From positions 32,001 to 96,000 of the IMG/VR virus record IMGVR_UViG_3300045988_058019: 64,000 bases of DNA. One strand, written 5' to 3'. Position numbers and translations under genes: made by a program. This stretch comes from a virus. Below are positions 48,924-62,745 of the stretch, piece by piece; the first letter of the stretch is position 1, and each line of letters begins with the position of its first letter. Under the pieces are notes generated by a model. That model saw only the letters and a program-made list of their open reading frames with translations. It was not told where the DNA came from and ran no database searches.

Positions 48924-49904
48924 TTAAGCAGTCTGCTTGCAGTCAGACTGCATTAATTCTTTCTTCCAGATATAACCTTTACACGTCTTAGCTCTACCAT
49001 TGCAAGCTCTCTGTATAGATTTATAGTCAGTGTTTACTGCCTTAGCCGCATTGTGCATTCCCATATAAGTAGCTACTAATATATCATCTAAAGTATACTG
49101 GTAAACTAAATACTTAGTAGATGCCACTCTTAGTTTTTCTTTTTGCTCTTCAGACATCTTTTTACCTTTATTCAATCCAACCATACCTTTAACCCAGTTA
49201 GAATTGCCAAAATATACTTTATTACGTTTATATCTCTTAACCAAGGTAGATTTATTCTTTTCATACTCTTCTAACCATAATGGAATGTTAGACTTTTTAT
49301 CTTCTAATTCTTCTTTAGTATATGCTGCAATAAAATTATTACAAAACGGGTGGATGTAATTATTGTTGCATAGTCTACCTATATTAGAGCGACTCAGGCC
49401 TGTAATAGTTGCTGCATCCTTGATAGTCCAAGCATATATATAATATCTATCAATAAAATTATATAAATGTACACGCTTACCGAATGTACCGTTTGCTACT
49501 AATTTTTTAGTATTTTCAGATACTTTCTTCTTTTGCTCTTCTGTCATCTTGAGTCCAAGAACTCCAAAATCACCACCTTTAGTACAATTGTATCCCTCTG
49601 TATAAGCGTTGTATTTTTCAATATACTCTATTTCTAATTTGTCTAATGTTTGAATTAGTTCTAAATTAGAAATATTTGGATCTGGAATAAATGATTCCAG
49701 TATATCTACAGTAAAGTTATGAAAACCGTACTTATTTATTGCTCTATAAATTGGTAAATCTAATTTTCCATTCTTAGCATTTCGCATATGGTCTTTTAGT
49801 CTTGATCTTAGTTTAACACTTTGACCAATATAACATTTACCATTCACATTATTTTTGATTATATATATACCAGCTAACTTTGGATCTATATCTCTGTATG
49901 TCAT
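48924..49904 (-). CDS. GIY-YIG homing endonuclease, 326 aa, no TAG
   Basis: N-terminus GIYIIKNNVNGKCYIGQS...YNCTKGG. C-terminus CKGYIWKKE. TAA stop. Sits 26 nt downstream of the suppressor tRNA. Confidence 0.85.
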   Translation of the reverse strand: MTYRDIDPKLAGIYIIKNNVNGKCYIGQSVKLRSRLKDHMRNAKNGKLDLPIYRAINKYGFHNFTVDILESFIPDPNISNLELIQTLDKLEIEYIEKYNAYTEGYNCTKGGDFGVLGLKMTEEQKKKVSENTKKLVANGTFGKRVHLYNFIDRYYIYAWTIKDAATITGLSRSNIGRLCNNNYIHPFCNNFIAAYTKEELEDKKSNIPLWLEEYEKNKSTLVKRYKRNKVYFGNSNWVKGMVGLNKGKKMSEEQKEKLRVASTKYLVYQYTLDDILVATYMGMHNAAKAVNTDYKSIQRACNGRAKTCKGYIWKKELMQSDCKQTA

Positions 49905-49930
49905 ATCTGCAAGTTTTATATGAATATTGG

Positions 49931-50005
49931 TTGGGGCGGCAGGGCTCGAACCCGCACATCACAGAGGTTTAGAATCTCCGGTACTACCAATTATACCACG
50001 CCCCA
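49931..50005 (-). tRNA. Amber-suppressor tRNA, anticodon CUA, Gln-like acceptor stem
   Basis: Cloverleaf drawn by hand. Acceptor stem TGGGGCG/CGCCCCA (U1-A72, G2-C71, G3-C70). D-stem GTAT/GTAC. Anticodon loop TTCTAAA (CTA at 49970-49972). T-arm GCGGG-TTCGAGC-CCTGC. There is an A31-C39 mismatch and a 7-nt variable loop. Confidence 0.8.
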
Positions 50006-59935: not shown

Positions 59936-60020
59936 GCCCGAATGGTGAAATAGGTATACACGAAAGACTTAAAATCTTTTGACCATTATGGTCGTGCGAG
60001 TTCAAGTCTCGCTTCGGGTA
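59936..60020 (+). tRNA. tRNA-Leu, anticodon UAA, long variable arm
   Basis: Acceptor GCCCGAA/TTCGGGT. Anticodon stem-loop AAAGA-CTTAAAA-TCTTT. Variable arm TGACCATTATGGTCG. T-arm GCGAG-TTCAAGT-CTCGC. Confidence 0.85.
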
Positions 60021-60299
60021 CAAAAGGATAGCTATCGTTTACTTCTCACAGACAGTTCTCAATAAAAAACTCAATAACTTCGGAGTAGCGTAAGCTACGG
60101 AGTTGTGTAACAATCCCAAGACATTGAGGGCACCAGTTTCTTATAATAGTATAGTTGGCAGACGTAAGGGCGTACTCAGCTGCCAGATGAAGCAGTGAAT
60201 TCTGTGGACTGATAGAGAACGTGTGATATTCAGGCTATGCGTTGCGCAGTTATAAGTTTTAGGTGTAAAATGCAATTTAATCATTAACTAAATAATCAT
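60021..60299 (+). ncRNA. ORF-free structured segment downstream of tRNA-Leu (candidate ncRNA or long leader)
   Basis: GNRA hairpin GTAGC-GTAA-GCTAC and hairpin TGGCAG...CTGCCA. No ORF. Confidence 0.25.
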
Positions 60300-60620: not shown

Positions 60621-61245
60621 TATTAATACAGATTTATTTCGCAAAGTAATTATTCTATGAAATGCAAATTATCCTCATATGTTGTGAAACATAATTTAAC
60701 CACGTTAAAGTATAATAATATAAGTTAGGTATGTCCTTATAAAGACTTAGGTAGCGCTAAGGACTATATTATTATACTTCTCTTCTTAAACCACCGATGA
60801 TACGTGACAAGTCGTATATGGAATGAGTGTGAGTCAAGAAGTAAACTATTCCGCCTTTATATGCACATTAAAGGTTAAAGATTGAATAGTAATCCACGTG
60901 GTAGATGCAGTTGTAGGTTCCAACTGGTGCACATCTTTTAGAGACAGCAACCAAGCTCGAAGTAAGCAGAGCGAAGATTAGCTATACCTCGATAGGCTTA
61001 ATGAGGTGCTTAACAGTCTGACACTAACTGAACAATAAGTGTCTTTTAAGTTCACCCTCAAGAAGGGAAAATGTTGAACTCTACAGATATGTAGACAGCT
61101 CCATTAACTCTAGCTGTAATAAAGAGTTATTAATAGAGTAAGAGAATAGAAACGTGTATATCTACGTAGTTCTTAGCATAGCTTATAGTCGCACATCGTA
61201 ACTGATGACTATATTAATGCGCTTACTCTATTATTTTTATTGCAT
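60621..61245 (+). ncRNA. Candidate large structured non-coding RNA (class unknown)
   Basis: About 620 nt without an ORF. Shares collinear motifs with 59090-59537: ATTCCGCC(C/T)T..TGCA at 59168 and 60848, and GTGCA(T/C)ATCTTTT at 59403 and 60927. Closed by the 11-bp stem 61132-61142/61222-61232 followed by ATTTTTATT. Confidence 0.4.
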
Positions 61246-61272: not shown

Positions 61273-61719
61273 ATGGAGAAAATAACTTGTATTCAGCAGT
61301 ATGTAATAGATAATCTTATTGAAGATGAGATATTATCTACAAACAGTCTATTAGATGCAGTTTCTGAAGTATGTTCAGAAGAACAATTTAATAACATACT
61401 ATCTATTCTTATTGAAACACCTATTCCTTGTACAGACATACCTAAATTGGAGCATAAAGAAGACTCAGGAAATAAAACAAACTTAGTAAGAATGAGTATG
61501 TTTATACCTGAAGAAACTAACACTTTAGCTAAACTAGGCATAATAAAAATACTAAAAAAACAATTCAACTTTAGTCTTAACCAAACTAAAGAATATGTAG
61601 ATAGTTGCATAGGAAAGTATAGTATACTACCCAATGCTATTCTACAAACAGAAGTAGATGAAGTTACTAAAAAATTAGAACCTTACAATGTAATTGTATC
61701 TACAGCAGTGTTTTATTAA
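61273..61719 (+). CDS. Divergent ribosomal protein bL12 (L7/L12)-like protein, 148 aa
   Basis: The C-terminal KLGIIKILKKQFNFSLNQTKEYVDS...EVDEVTKKLEPYNVIV parallels the bL12 CTD ([25 protein letters not shown]...AEALKKALEEAGAEV). The N-terminal LLDAVSEVCSEEQF parallels VVELISAMEEKF. Confidence 0.5.
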   Translation: MEKITCIQQYVIDNLIEDEILSTNSLLDAVSEVCSEEQFNNILSILIETPIPCTDIPKLEHKEDSGNKTNLVRMSMFIPEETNTLAKLGIIKILKKQFNFSLNQTKEYVDSCIGKYSILPNAILQTEVDEVTKKLEPYNVIVSTAVFY

Positions 61720-62436
61720 TAAGTTAATGCAGTAAATATTACTGCATCTATACTGTGAGAATCAGTGTCAACTTTGTGGGGCTTATATTCAGTTATTCTT
61801 TATGTAAAATAGGAGTCATGACCTAATAATATCATAATATAAACTGATATTAGTGCAGAGAAATCAAAGACAATATACATTTTAGTGCGATTGATGTATA
61901 CGAGTAAAGGTCATGACAAGGTTCATGATTTAAGGGTGTCTTAAACGACAGGTTGAGAGCAACAACGTAAAAGCACAATTGCTAAGTCAGAGGAACCCAT
62001 CTCTGGCGCTCTTTAAGGTGAGAATCCTTAACAATCCTGTGGGGCTTATATCTCGTGTTTATAGTAGTGGTGTCACGAGTATTAGTGCAGACGTTAAAAT
62101 CAGGAACAACTATATTAGACGGCAATATTACCTTCTTCCGGTCGCAAATGTCATATAGTTTAATATAGCCAAGTTTGTTTCGTCCTTAGATTTACAGTAT
62201 TTGCCATTTGTTTATTTAATCATTGTTCGTTCTTAATTATACAGATTGATTAATTAAGCATAACAGTAAGCGTACTGTTGTCAGTATATTTATATGTGAA
62301 TATAGATATACTGATTGCACTCAAAAGCTGGCCTTCACGTGGCGAGTGTGTTAAGTAATAGGTCTAAAAAATCTTCCAGTTTTACCTATGAAAACTAACA
62401 GCTACCTTTTTATTAACTTTAATAACTATCAAAAAT
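61720..62436 (+). ncRNA. ORF-free segment containing two copies of a boxA-hairpin-boxB element (candidate ncRNAs or regulatory elements)
   Basis: TGTGGGGCTTATAT at 61775 and 62038, and TATTAGTGCAGA at 61848 and 62080. The intervening stem differs in sequence but stays paired in both copies. Confidence 0.4.
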
Positions 62437-62633: not shown

Positions 62634-62716
62634 GCCCAGATGGCGAAATAGGTAGACGCTAAGGTCTTAAACACCTTTGACCATTGGTCGTGCGGGTTCG
62701 ACTCCCGCTCTGGGTA
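62634..62716 (+). tRNA. tRNA-Leu, anticodon UAA (second, diverged copy)
   Basis: Acceptor GCCCAGA/TCTGGGT. Anticodon stem-loop AAGGT-CTTAAAC-ACCTT. Long variable arm. T-arm GCGGG-TTCGACT-CCCGC. Confidence 0.85.
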
Positions 62717-62745
62717 CAATTAGTAATTAACATTAAAATCTATTT

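What the first reader, a model, noticed from the sequence alone, without database searches (positions are those of the whole stretch)
61273..61719. Phage-encoded divergent ribosomal protein bL12 (L7/L12)-like gene in the TAG-free block
Both halves of the 148-aa ORF parallel bL12.
- LLDAVSEVCSEEQF matches the N-terminal dimerisation helix VVELISAMEEKF.
- KLGIIKILKKQFNFSLNQTKEYVDS...EVDEVTKKLEPYNVIV matches the factor-binding C-terminal domain [25 protein letters not shown]...AEALKKALEEAGAEV.

The bL12 CTD recruits translational GTPases (IF2, EF-Tu, EF-G, RF3). A phage copy sits in the same region as extra tRNAs in a phage that rewrites a stop codon. This invites the hypothesis that it helps tilt termination versus suppression.
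Basis: partly seen in the sequence, partly recalled or inferred. Interest (0 to 1): 0.65.

Follow-up and report, generated by a model that had tools for sequence, protein, structure and literature searches.

The report
Phage protein with L12-like tail domain
A gut crAss-like phage carries a small early gene whose C-terminal half is a real but diverged copy of the factor-binding domain of ribosomal protein bL12; its N-terminal half is phage-specific, so it is a new member of the already known class of phage bL12-domain proteins and not a spare ribosomal protein.

Summary
The 148-aa ORF at 61273-61719 (+) is a real gene, found in about 1,900 90%-identity protein clusters, all from ~100-kb crAss-like (Suoliviridae) phage contigs.

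- **C-terminal half:** Residues ~70-146 are a diverged bL12 C-terminal domain. The single-sequence Pfam hit is sub-threshold (E 0.029). The family profile is clear: E 5.8e-9 to T. maritima L7/L12, hhalign 97% and E 1.6e-10 against 78 bacterial bL12. The model has the β-α-α-β-α-β fold at pLDDT >90, and Foldseek's top hits are bL12.
- **N-terminal half:** Residues 1-49 form a lineage-specific three-helix domain with no detectable bL12 N-terminal-domain homology. They are joined to the C-terminal domain by a disordered ~20-residue linker.
- **Recoding idea:** the context holds (suppressor tRNA, late genes with in-frame TAG), but the link is unsupported. cr114_1 and cr4_1 recode TAG without this gene. 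About a fifth of homologues are frameshifted or deleted, and dN/dS is about 0.6.

The most likely role is an accessory early protein that presents a bL12-like surface to host translational GTPases or the stalk base. Phage bL12-domain proteins are known (Mizuno 2019), and public records already call this cluster "L7/L12". Interest is modest.

The parts
61273..61719 (+). Complete ORF, 148 aa plus TAA stop: the crAss-like phage bL12-CTD-domain protein
   Evidence: ORF list and sequence. 1,898 homologous clusters. Intact in 50 of 64 related loci. dN/dS 0.59.
61273..61419 (+). N-terminal domain, aa 1-49: three predicted helices (6-17, 23-33, 36-48). Family-specific and the most conserved part of the protein.
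   Evidence: AF2 models. Mean column entropy 0.86 bits against 1.43 for the C-terminal domain. dN/dS 0.39. No Pfam, PDB or Foldseek relative.
61420..61479 (+). Flexible linker, aa 50-69. Pro/Thr/Asp/Lys/Glu-rich and variable in length among homologues.
   Evidence: pLDDT below 50 for residues 50-67. Indels in alignments A1 and fam.aln. dN/dS about 1.0.
61480..61716 (+). bL12 C-terminal-domain homologue, aa 70-148: strand 71-78, helix 84-98, helix 102-111, strand 116-118, helix 125-138, strand 141-146
   Evidence: pLDDT 88-94. Family profile against PDB, E 5.8e-9. hhalign E 1.6e-10. Foldseek against 8yeq: target-normalised TM 0.77, rmsd 2.7 A. K87, I91, K92, L102 and K106 align with E. coli K65, I69, K70, L80 and K84 and are at least 90% conserved.
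61554..61560 (+). A7 homopolymer inside helix 4 (codons L94-K95-K96). It is a recurrent frameshift site in natural variants.
   Evidence: Sequence. Loss of one A reproduces the truncated products of L113 and P0126.
60632..61044 (+). Context: structured RNAs upstream on the same strand, RAGATH-6 (60632-60782) and RAGATH-7 (60845-61044)
   Evidence: Rfam above gathering score, 173.5 and 190.3 bits.
61746..62105 (+). Context: two Hatchet self-cleaving ribozymes (61746-61869 and 62009-62105). The first begins 27 nt after the stop codon.
   Evidence: Rfam RF02678, 89.6 and 97.6 bits against a gathering score of 51. The same arrangement is seen in L096, L123 and L142.
62634..62717 (+). Context: tRNA-Leu(TAA), conserved 0.4-1.5 kb downstream of the gene in relatives
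   Evidence: ARAGORN. Rfam tRNA.
49928..50005 (-). Context: amber suppressor tRNA (anticodon CTA), 11.3 kb away on the opposite strand
   Evidence: ARAGORN. Homologues in cr114_1, cr4_1 and cr53_1 are annotated tRNA-Gln.

Best explanation
**What it is (shown).** A real gene in the standard-code early block of a TAG-recoding crAss-like (Suoliviridae) phage. It encodes a two-domain protein:
- a lineage-specific three-helix N-terminal domain;
- a disordered linker of about 20 residues;
- a C-terminal domain that is a diverged homologue of the bL12 C-terminal domain.

The C-terminal domain keeps the Lys/Ile face of helix 4 and the Leu and Lys of helix 5. In bL12 this surface contacts translational GTPases.

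**How it most likely works (inferred).** It is an accessory host-takeover factor.
- The tethered bL12-like domain engages host translational GTPases (EF-Tu, EF-G, IF2, RF3) or the uL11/GTPase-associated centre.
- The better-conserved N-terminal domain anchors it to a partner that is still unknown.
- It is not a canonical stalk protein.
- It is not needed for TAG recoding.
For: **C-terminal domain homology**
- PDB profile search: the top 18 hits are all bL12, best E 5.8e-9.
- 9 of 10 family members hit PF00542.
- hhalign: 97%, E 1.6e-10.
- The family HMM hits 78 of 78 bL12.
- A bL12-only C-terminal HMM hits 31 family ORFs, down to E 1.9e-7.
- AF2 gives β-α-α-β-α-β at pLDDT above 90.
- Foldseek top hits are bL12, ahead of ClpS.
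- The BFVD top hit is a phage RplL.

**Surface retention**
- K87 is 90% K. I91 is 96%. K92 is 90% K plus 8% R. L102 is 90%. K106 is 96% K plus 4% R.
- This is in a domain with mean entropy 1.43 bits.
- Per-column conservation correlates with that of bL12: rho 0.33, reached by 1 of 56 circular shifts.

**Architecture.** Helical N-domain, a linker with pLDDT below 50, then the C-terminal domain.

**Early and accessory**
- It is the second to fourth gene of the plus-strand block at the divergent switch in the window and in distant relatives.
- All ORFs in this block end in TAA.
- dN/dS is 0.39 for the N-terminal domain, 1.0 for the linker and 0.69 for the C-terminal domain.
- 13 of 64 loci carry frameshifted or deleted copies.

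**Precedent.** Phage bL12-domain proteins are known, and one was detected in E. coli 70S preparations (PMC6375957).
Against: - No binding has been shown.
- Some positions invariant in bL12 are relaxed here. R73 becomes K/R/Q, K81 is variable, and E82 becomes Q or E. The window protein reads SLNQTKE where bL12 reads GLKEAKD.
- The window protein itself fails the Pfam gathering score.
- The C-terminal domain is under weak constraint (dN/dS 0.69) and is often deleted while the N-terminal domain persists. The N-terminal domain may therefore carry the main function.
- Isolated bL12 C-terminal domain binds factors only weakly (my recollection of the literature). A free decoy would need high expression.
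- The bL12 C-terminal fold also occurs inside non-ribosomal phage proteins: rIIB-like proteins in N4-like phages and a 308-aa protein next to the primase in cr126_1.
Confidence: 0.5

Rival explanations
1. True stalk replacement. The protein is incorporated into host ribosomes in place of bL12. Its N-terminal domain binds the uL10 C-terminal helix or pairs with the host bL12 N-terminal domain. This creates phage-modified ribosomes with altered factor recruitment.
For: - The domain order matches bL12: helical N-domain, flexible hinge of about 20 residues, then the C-terminal domain.
- Foldseek aligns the full length to full-length bL12: 1rqu_A over 125 columns (E 4.8e-4) and 1dd3_A over 138 columns.
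- There is a faint N-terminal similarity in a sensible register, with phage helices 2-3 over bL12 helices 1-2 (P 0.013; 5 of 200 shuffles reach it).
- The N-terminal domain is the most conserved part, as expected if it docks on a conserved host target.
- bL12 exchanges readily on ribosomes, and a phage bL12-domain protein was detected in 70S preparations (PMC6375957).
Against: - No family member hits the Pfam bL12 N-terminal model.
- The N-terminal profile finds no bL12 in PDB at E<=10.
- The N-terminal-only model has no structural neighbour.
- The N-terminal domain has an extra helix.
- The linker lacks the Ala/Gly-rich composition of the bL12 hinge.
- In Mizuno et al., tagged phage bL12 could not be used to affinity-purify ribosomes.
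Confidence: 0.15
2. The protein is part of the code-change machinery. By acting on RF3, RF1 or the stalk base, it shifts the balance at UAG from termination to suppression by the phage tRNA(CTA).
For: - The phage recodes TAG in late genes and encodes tRNA(CTA).
- The gene is in the standard-code early block, so it could act before late genes are translated.
- At least 24 of 33 related loci show tRNA(CTA) within 10 kb upstream.
- The bL12 C-terminal domain binds RF3 among other factors (Helgstrand 2007, cited in PMC3505967).
- One homologue (L115) has an in-frame TAG between its two domains.
Against: - cr114_1 and cr4_1 have tRNA(CTA) and 6-17 in-frame TAG in TerL and portal. Neither gives any tblastn match to this protein, and cr114_1's syntenic early region has none even by HMM.
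- cr53_1 has a degraded copy.
- 13 of 64 loci are frameshifted or deleted.
- The gene is 11 kb from the suppressor tRNA, on the opposite strand.
- Neither of the two recoding papers checked lists an L12-like gene among code-change genes.
- The association is phylogenetically confounded.
Confidence: 0.07
3. Exapted fold. The bL12-derived domain is now a generic protein-protein module with a non-translational target, for example anti-defence, replication or a ClpS-like adaptor role. The residues retained are structural.
For: - Fast evolution and frequent loss are typical of early accessory or anti-defence genes.
- The gene sits among small ORFs with no Pfam hit.
- The same fold is embedded in unrelated phage proteins.
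- ClpS adaptors are the next-best structural matches.
- Helix 5 residues invariant in bL12 (K81, E82, G79) are relaxed.
Against: - Conserved surface lysines (K87, K92, K106) at the bL12 factor-binding positions are hard to explain by folding alone.
- Sequence profiles point to bL12 and not to ClpS: there is no ClpS Pfam hit, and identity in the Foldseek ClpS matches is 9-13%.
Confidence: 0.25

Closest known systems
Bacterial ribosomal stalk protein bL12 (L7/L12; Pfam PF00542 C-terminal domain plus PF16320 N-terminal domain)
   Same: - The C-terminal domain is homologous and has the same β-α-α-β-α-β fold.
- Equivalents of K65, I69, K70, L80 and K84 are retained.
- The overall order is the same: helical N-domain, flexible linker, C-terminal domain.
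   Different: - The N-terminal domain has three helices and no detectable homology to the dimerisation and uL10-binding domain.
- The linker is not Ala/Gly-rich.
- R73, K81, E82, G79 and P91 are not maintained.
- The gene is phage-encoded, accessory and fast-evolving.
Phage-encoded bL12-domain proteins (Mizuno et al. 2019, Nat Commun 10:752, PMC6375957)
   Same: - A viral gene carrying a bL12 C-terminal domain.
- The domain is joined to unrelated flanking sequence.
- The gene is patchily present among related phages, as that paper describes.
   Different: - That paper reports about 30-40% identity to cellular bL12. This family has about 20% identity and is below the Pfam cut-off for the window protein.
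- The hosts there were Proteobacteria, and crAss-like phages are not mentioned.
- This family has its own conserved N-terminal domain.
Other bL12-CTD-like proteins of Crassvirales (cr126_1 308 aa, cr50_1 141 aa, cr56_1 81 aa, cr1_1 132 aa in BFVD; cr53_1 gp22 87 aa)
   Same: - The same fold, in the same viral order.
- cr53_1 gp22-type small proteins are probable paralogues of this C-terminal domain (hhalign 90%, E 1.9e-6).
   Different: - The architectures and neighbourhoods differ. The cr126_1 domain is internal (residues 166-215) and lies next to the primase.
- gp22-type proteins have the C-terminal domain only.
- Only the cr126_1 and gp22-type proteins were read here; neither matches the N-terminal domain. 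The cr50_1, cr56_1 and cr1_1 proteins were not checked for it.
ClpS N-degron adaptor (same fold superfamily)
   Same: An α/β sandwich of similar size. ClpS chains are the second group of Foldseek hits (target-normalised TM 0.53-0.73).
   Different: - Only 9-13% identity in the Foldseek matches.
- No ClpS profile hit.
- All sequence-profile evidence points to bL12.

Membership tests
bL12 (ribosomal protein L7/L12) | C-terminal domain homologous to PF00542, with the β-α-α-β-α-β fold | tested here: met
   - Family profile against PDB: E 5.8e-9, with the top 18 hits all bL12.
- hhalign: E 1.6e-10.
- 78 of 78 bL12 are hit by the family HMM.
- AF2 plus Foldseek.
- Caveat: the window protein alone scores 15.1 bits, below the 25.9-bit Pfam cut-off.
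bL12 (ribosomal protein L7/L12) | N-terminal two-helix dimerisation and uL10-binding domain (PF16320) | tested here: not met
   - 0 of 10 members hit it.
- The N-terminal profile against PDB finds no bL12 at E<=10.
- Foldseek with the N-terminal model finds nothing below E 8.7.
- hhalign: P 0.013 over 11 columns, reached by 5 of 200 shuffles.
bL12 (ribosomal protein L7/L12) | Flexible hinge between the two domains | tested here: met
   - Residues 50-67 have pLDDT below 50.
- Length is variable and dN/dS is about 1.
- The composition (P/T/D/K/E) differs from the Ala/Gly-rich bL12 hinge.
bL12 (ribosomal protein L7/L12) | Conserved factor-binding surface on helices 4 and 5 (E. coli K65, V66, I69, K70, R73, L80, E82, K84; residue list from my recollection of Helgstrand 2007 and Kothe 2004) | tested here: inconclusive
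   - K87, I91, K92, L102 and K106 are kept at 90% or more.
- The R73 equivalent is K, R or Q.
- The K81 equivalent is variable.
- The E82 equivalent is Q (57%) or E (35%).
- The window protein has N103 and Q104 at these last two positions.
bL12 (ribosomal protein L7/L12) | Stable association with the 50S stalk through uL10 | not testable with these tools
   This needs ribosome co-sedimentation or a multimer prediction with host uL10.
Phage-encoded bL12-domain proteins (Mizuno 2019) | Encoded on a bona fide phage genome and containing a bL12 C-terminal domain | tested here: met
   - The window is a crAss-like phage, with patches 92-95% identical to cr53_1 and cr115_1.
- Homologues lie on contigs of about 100 kb from IMG/VR.
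- For the C-terminal domain, see the first row.
Stop-codon 'code-change module' (suppressor tRNA, release factor, aminoacyl-tRNA synthetase; Borges et al. preprint) | Clustered with, and co-inherited with, the suppressor tRNA in recoded phages | tested here: not met
   - 11.3 kb away and on the opposite strand from tRNA(CTA).
- cr114_1 and cr4_1 recode TAG without the gene.
- Not listed among code-change genes in the preprint.
ClpS-like adaptor | ClpS sequence family and N-degron pocket | tested here: not met
   - No ClpS Pfam hit in 10 members.
- Foldseek ClpS matches are weaker than bL12, at 9-13% identity.

The most novel reading that the evidence does not exclude
The protein is one piece of a phage early-region translation toolkit. 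That region also holds a conserved tRNA-Leu(UAA), a permuted tmRNA, a second C-terminal-domain-only L12-like protein and the amber suppressor tRNA. In this reading its bL12-like domain docks on host ribosomes or on RF3 or EF-Tu early in infection. It would bias what happens at UAG, or at stalled ribosomes, towards phage suppression or phage tmRNA. That would be a protein-level component of viral genetic-code switching.
Probability: 0.07. Interest if true: 0.75.

Novelty: new member of a known kind. Interest (0 to 1): 0.33.

Why it matters
If the bL12-like domain really engages host translation factors, this abundant family of human-gut phages would offer a simple natural tool for probing how the ribosomal stalk recruits GTPases in Bacteroidales. 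It might also show how recoded phages prepare the host translation apparatus.

As it stands, the value is corrective:
- The gene should be annotated "bL12 C-terminal-domain protein", not "ribosomal protein L7/L12".
- Its N-terminal domain is an uncharacterised, better-conserved module whose partner is the key unknown.
- The neighbourhood is an unusually dense cluster of self-cleaving ribozymes, RAGATH RNAs, tRNAs and, in relatives, a permuted tmRNA. It may be more interesting than the gene itself.

Tried and rejected
- **PHROGs:** for the window protein only phrog_10549 at E 0.16. Across 10 members the best hits were unnamed phrogs at E>=0.0019. Not informative.
- **N-terminal homology to bL12**, tried five ways, all negative or marginal: Pfam per member, hhalign local, global and mact 0 with a shuffle null, N-terminal profile against PDB, and an N-terminal-only AF2 model with Foldseek.
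- **Pfam on seven neighbouring ORFs and on cr115_1 gp79:** no hits.
- **Host origin of the C-terminal domain:** ranking 78 bL12 by family-HMM score shows no clear Bacteroidota affinity. The sequences are too diverged for a phylogeny.
- **P0185**, a 1,170-aa repetitive protein hit at E 6.7e-4, was rejected as a low-complexity artefact.
- **N-terminal-only "homologues" in longer proteins** (P0159, P0164, P0157, P0148, P0129). Where the tail can be placed it is a deletion or frameshift product: P0148 and P0158 run into the downstream ribozyme region, and P0129 joins the C-terminus of the 62746 ORF. None is a domain swap.
It was repeated as A5.
- **Literature searches:** crAss-like plus ribosomal protein L7, Crassvirales plus L12, and crAss-like plus hatchet ribozyme found nothing relevant.
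- **The overlapping minus-strand ORF 61293-61634** (113 aa) was disregarded as the antisense shadow of the conserved gene.

Full report
**1. The observation**

The ORF is exactly as described: ATG at 61273, TAA at 61717-61719, 148 aa, plus strand.

The window is a crAss-like phage of the Suoliviridae (the "delta" group).
- Patches of 58-64 kb are 92-95% identical to cr53_1 and cr115_1.
- With TAG read as sense, minus-strand frames of 150 aa or more cover 48.2 kb, against 23.4 kb under the standard code. Individual genes carry up to 17 in-frame TAG.
- The eight plus-strand ORFs between 58 and 64 kb all end in TAA.
- ARAGORN finds tRNA(CTA) at 49928-50005 on the minus strand, and tRNA-Leu(TAA) at 59936 and 62634.

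**2. Is it a gene?**

Yes.
- It has 1,898 homologous 90%-identity clusters.
- An exhaustive phmmer search of 1.84 billion representatives finds only 66, so this is a narrow family.
- IMG/VR yields 59 loci, and encoding-contig look-ups added four more (five counting L006, a second contig carrying the same P0174 protein). Where contigs are long they are about 100-kb phage genomes.
- 50 of the 64 loci scored (window included) have an intact ORF, at 27-93% identity.
- Pairwise Nei-Gojobori dN/dS has a median of 0.59: 0.39 for residues 1-49, about 1.0 for residues 50-69, and 0.69 for residues 70-146.

**3. C-terminal half**

On its own the window protein gives a sub-threshold Pfam hit to Ribosomal_L12 (E 0.029, 15.1 bits against a 25.9-bit cut-off). 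It also gives a weak phmmer hit to T. maritima L7/L12 (E 0.36). With family information the signal is unambiguous.
- A ten-member profile finds bL12 in its top 18 PDB hits (1dd3 at E 5.8e-9).
- 9 of 10 members hit PF00542.
- I fetched 80 real rplL loci from GTDB genomes and aligned 78 products. hhalign of the phage family against them gives 97% probability and E 1.6e-10 over 57 columns.
- A 49-sequence family HMM hits all 78 bL12, at 15.7-36.6 bits.
- Conversely, a bL12-only C-terminal HMM hits 31 family ORFs. It misses the window's own copy, which belongs to a more diverged "SLNQTKE" subgroup.
- AlphaFold2 gives strand 71-78, helix 84-98, helix 102-111, strand 116-118, helix 125-138 and strand 141-146, at pLDDT 88-94.
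- Foldseek's best PDB matches are bL12: 1rqu_A at E 4.8e-4, and 8yeq with target-normalised TM 0.77 and rmsd 2.7 A. ClpS, which has the same fold, follows at 9-13% identity.

| Window residue | E. coli residue (mature numbering) | Family conservation |
|---|---|---|
| K87 | K65 | 90% |
| I91 | I69 | 96% |
| K92 | K70 | 90% K, 8% R |
| L102 | L80 | 90% |
| K106 | K84 | 96% K, 4% R |
| K95 | R73 | K, R or Q |
| N103 | K81 | variable |
| Q104 | E82 | Q 57%, E 35% |

That the listed E. coli residues form the shared binding site for IF2, EF-Tu, EF-G and RF3 is my recollection of Helgstrand et al. 2007, which is cited in PMC3505967. Column-wise conservation correlates with that of bL12: rho 0.33, reached by 1 of 56 circular shifts.

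**4. N-terminal half**

- No family member hits the Pfam bL12 N-terminal model.
- An N-terminal-only profile finds no bL12 in PDB at E<=10.
- An N-terminal-only AF2 model (three helices 6-17, 23-33 and 36-48; pLDDT 81) has no Foldseek neighbour below E 8.7.
- hhalign of the phage N-terminal domain against the bL12 N-terminal domain gives 11 columns, P 0.013. This is reached by 5 of 200 column shuffles.

At most this is a faint hint. I treat the N-terminal domain as family-specific. It is the best-conserved part of the protein (mean entropy 0.86 against 1.43 bits; invariant Q8, V11, L15, C34, I42). Residues 50-67 are predicted disordered, vary in length and evolve neutrally.

**5. Neighbourhood and population behaviour**

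The gene is syntenic in relatives as distant as 27-35% identity. In each it is the second to fourth gene of the plus-strand block that starts at the divergent switch next to thymidylate synthase and runs to a sigma-factor-like gene.

It is embedded in structured RNAs on the same strand (the same pattern appears in L096, L123 and L142):
- RAGATH-6 at 60632-60782 and RAGATH-7 at 60845-61044, upstream;
- two Hatchet ribozymes at 61746-61869 and 62009-62105, the first starting 27 nt after the stop codon;
- tRNA-Leu at 62634.

Relatives also carry other translation-related elements:
- a permuted tmRNA 5-6 kb downstream, supported by Rfam RF04321 and ARAGORN tags such as GNTSYVTDYTRLVA, and annotated SsrA in cr115_1;
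- in some, an 87-aa paralogue with the C-terminal domain only.

The gene is dispensable.
- Among GenBank phages only three records match it, and cr53_1 keeps only a frameshifted remnant.
- cr114_1 and cr115_1 lack it at the syntenic site.
- 14 of the 64 loci have no intact ORF. Thirteen are frameshifted, deleted or reduced to a 25-residue N-terminal remnant, including a -1 slip in the A7 run at 61554-61560. L115 is interrupted only by an in-frame TAG.

**6. The recoding hypothesis**

cr114_1 and cr4_1 each have tRNA(CTA) and TerL or portal genes with 6-17 in-frame TAG. Neither gives any tblastn match to this protein, and cr114_1's syntenic early region has none even by HMM. The gene is 11 kb from the suppressor tRNA. 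The two recoding papers I checked mention no L12-like gene. The co-occurrence is clade-wide and therefore confounded. The hypothesis is not excluded as a modulatory role, but nothing specific supports it.

**7. Mechanism**

Shown: a tethered bL12-derived domain with a partly preserved factor-binding face, in an early, accessory, fast-evolving gene.

Inferred: it mimics the bL12 C-terminal domain to engage host translational GTPases or the uL11 region, positioned by an N-terminal domain whose partner is unknown (confidence about 0.5).

Rivals:
- true stalk incorporation (0.15);
- exaptation to a non-translational target (0.25);
- a code-switch helper (0.07).

**8. Novelty**

Phage bL12-domain proteins, often fused to unrelated sequence and patchily distributed, were described by Mizuno et al. 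2019 (PMC6375957). JGI and nr records already name members of this very cluster "ribosomal protein L7/L12". BFVD lists further crAss-like bL12-CTD proteins. I found no paper that discusses this family. It is a new member of a known kind, and interest is about 0.33.

Noticed in passing
window 60632-60782, 60845-61044, 61746-61869, 62009-62105 (+): The long 'intergenic' gaps around the ORF are filled by Rfam-level structured RNAs: RAGATH-6, RAGATH-7 and two Hatchet self-cleaving ribozymes. The first Hatchet begins 27 nt after the stop codon, so the early transcript is probably cut into pieces. Related loci add RAGATH-7-assoc and RAGATH-9. A search for papers linking hatchet ribozymes to crAss-like phages found none.
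   Followed up: partly
L096:15761-16052, L123:16074-16329, L142:15090-15442, L147:8213-8574 (beyond the window end): Relatives carry a permuted tmRNA about 5-6 kb downstream of the L12-like gene. It scores above the Rfam RF04321 gathering score, and ARAGORN gives conserved tag peptides such as GNTSYVTDYTRLVA and GNFYVTDYTRIAA. It is annotated SsrA in cr115_1 RefSeq.
   Followed up: partly
L001:5183-5446 (cr53_1 gp22); L101:13667-13951; L104:13148-13432; L109, L115, L117: A second small ORF of about 87 aa lies 3.1-3.7 kb downstream. It is a probable paralogue of the L12-like C-terminal domain with no N-terminal domain (hhalign 90%, E 1.9e-6 against the family C-terminal domain; E 0.006 against bL12). 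By synteny it would lie about 560 nt past the end of this window.
   Followed up: partly
window 61554-61560: There is an A7 run inside the C-terminal-domain coding region. Loss of one A reproduces the truncated products seen in L113 and P0126, which end at a TAG. This could be a frameshift hot spot or an assembly error.
   Followed up: partly
L115:9992-10441: One homologue has an in-frame TAG between the N- and C-terminal domains, so the full-length protein would be made only when TAG is suppressed. Thirteen intact homologues end in TAG rather than TAA, and would be extended late in infection.
   Followed up: partly
window 59936-60021 and 62634-62717 (+); 49928-50005 (-): There are two copies of tRNA-Leu(TAA) in the early block. 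The downstream one is conserved in most relatives. The amber suppressor tRNA(CTA) sits next to a 326-aa ORF (48924-49904, -); the ORF in that position is annotated as a homing endonuclease in cr114_1 and cr4_1.
   Followed up: partly
L148:2530-3456 (cr126_1, Steigviridae): A 308-aa protein next to the DNA primase carries an internal bL12-CTD-like segment at residues 166-215 (hhalign E 1.2e-4). This looks like an independent use of the fold in another crAss-like family.
   Followed up: partly
P0181 (288 aa, metagenomic): This is the closest relative outside the family. It looks like an N-terminal Cys-rich zinc-ribbon-like segment followed by two tandem, clearly bL12-like C-terminal domains (FNFGLKETKDLVDGAPSVL). 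It scores 58 bits with the family HMM. Its source was not looked up.
   Followed up: no
L147:9102-9287 (cr115_1 gp79): A 61-aa protein annotated 'ribosomal protein-like protein' has only a helix 4/helix 5-like motif (YNLSLSDAKIVADKF). It scores 13 bits with the family HMM and has no Pfam hit.
   Followed up: partly
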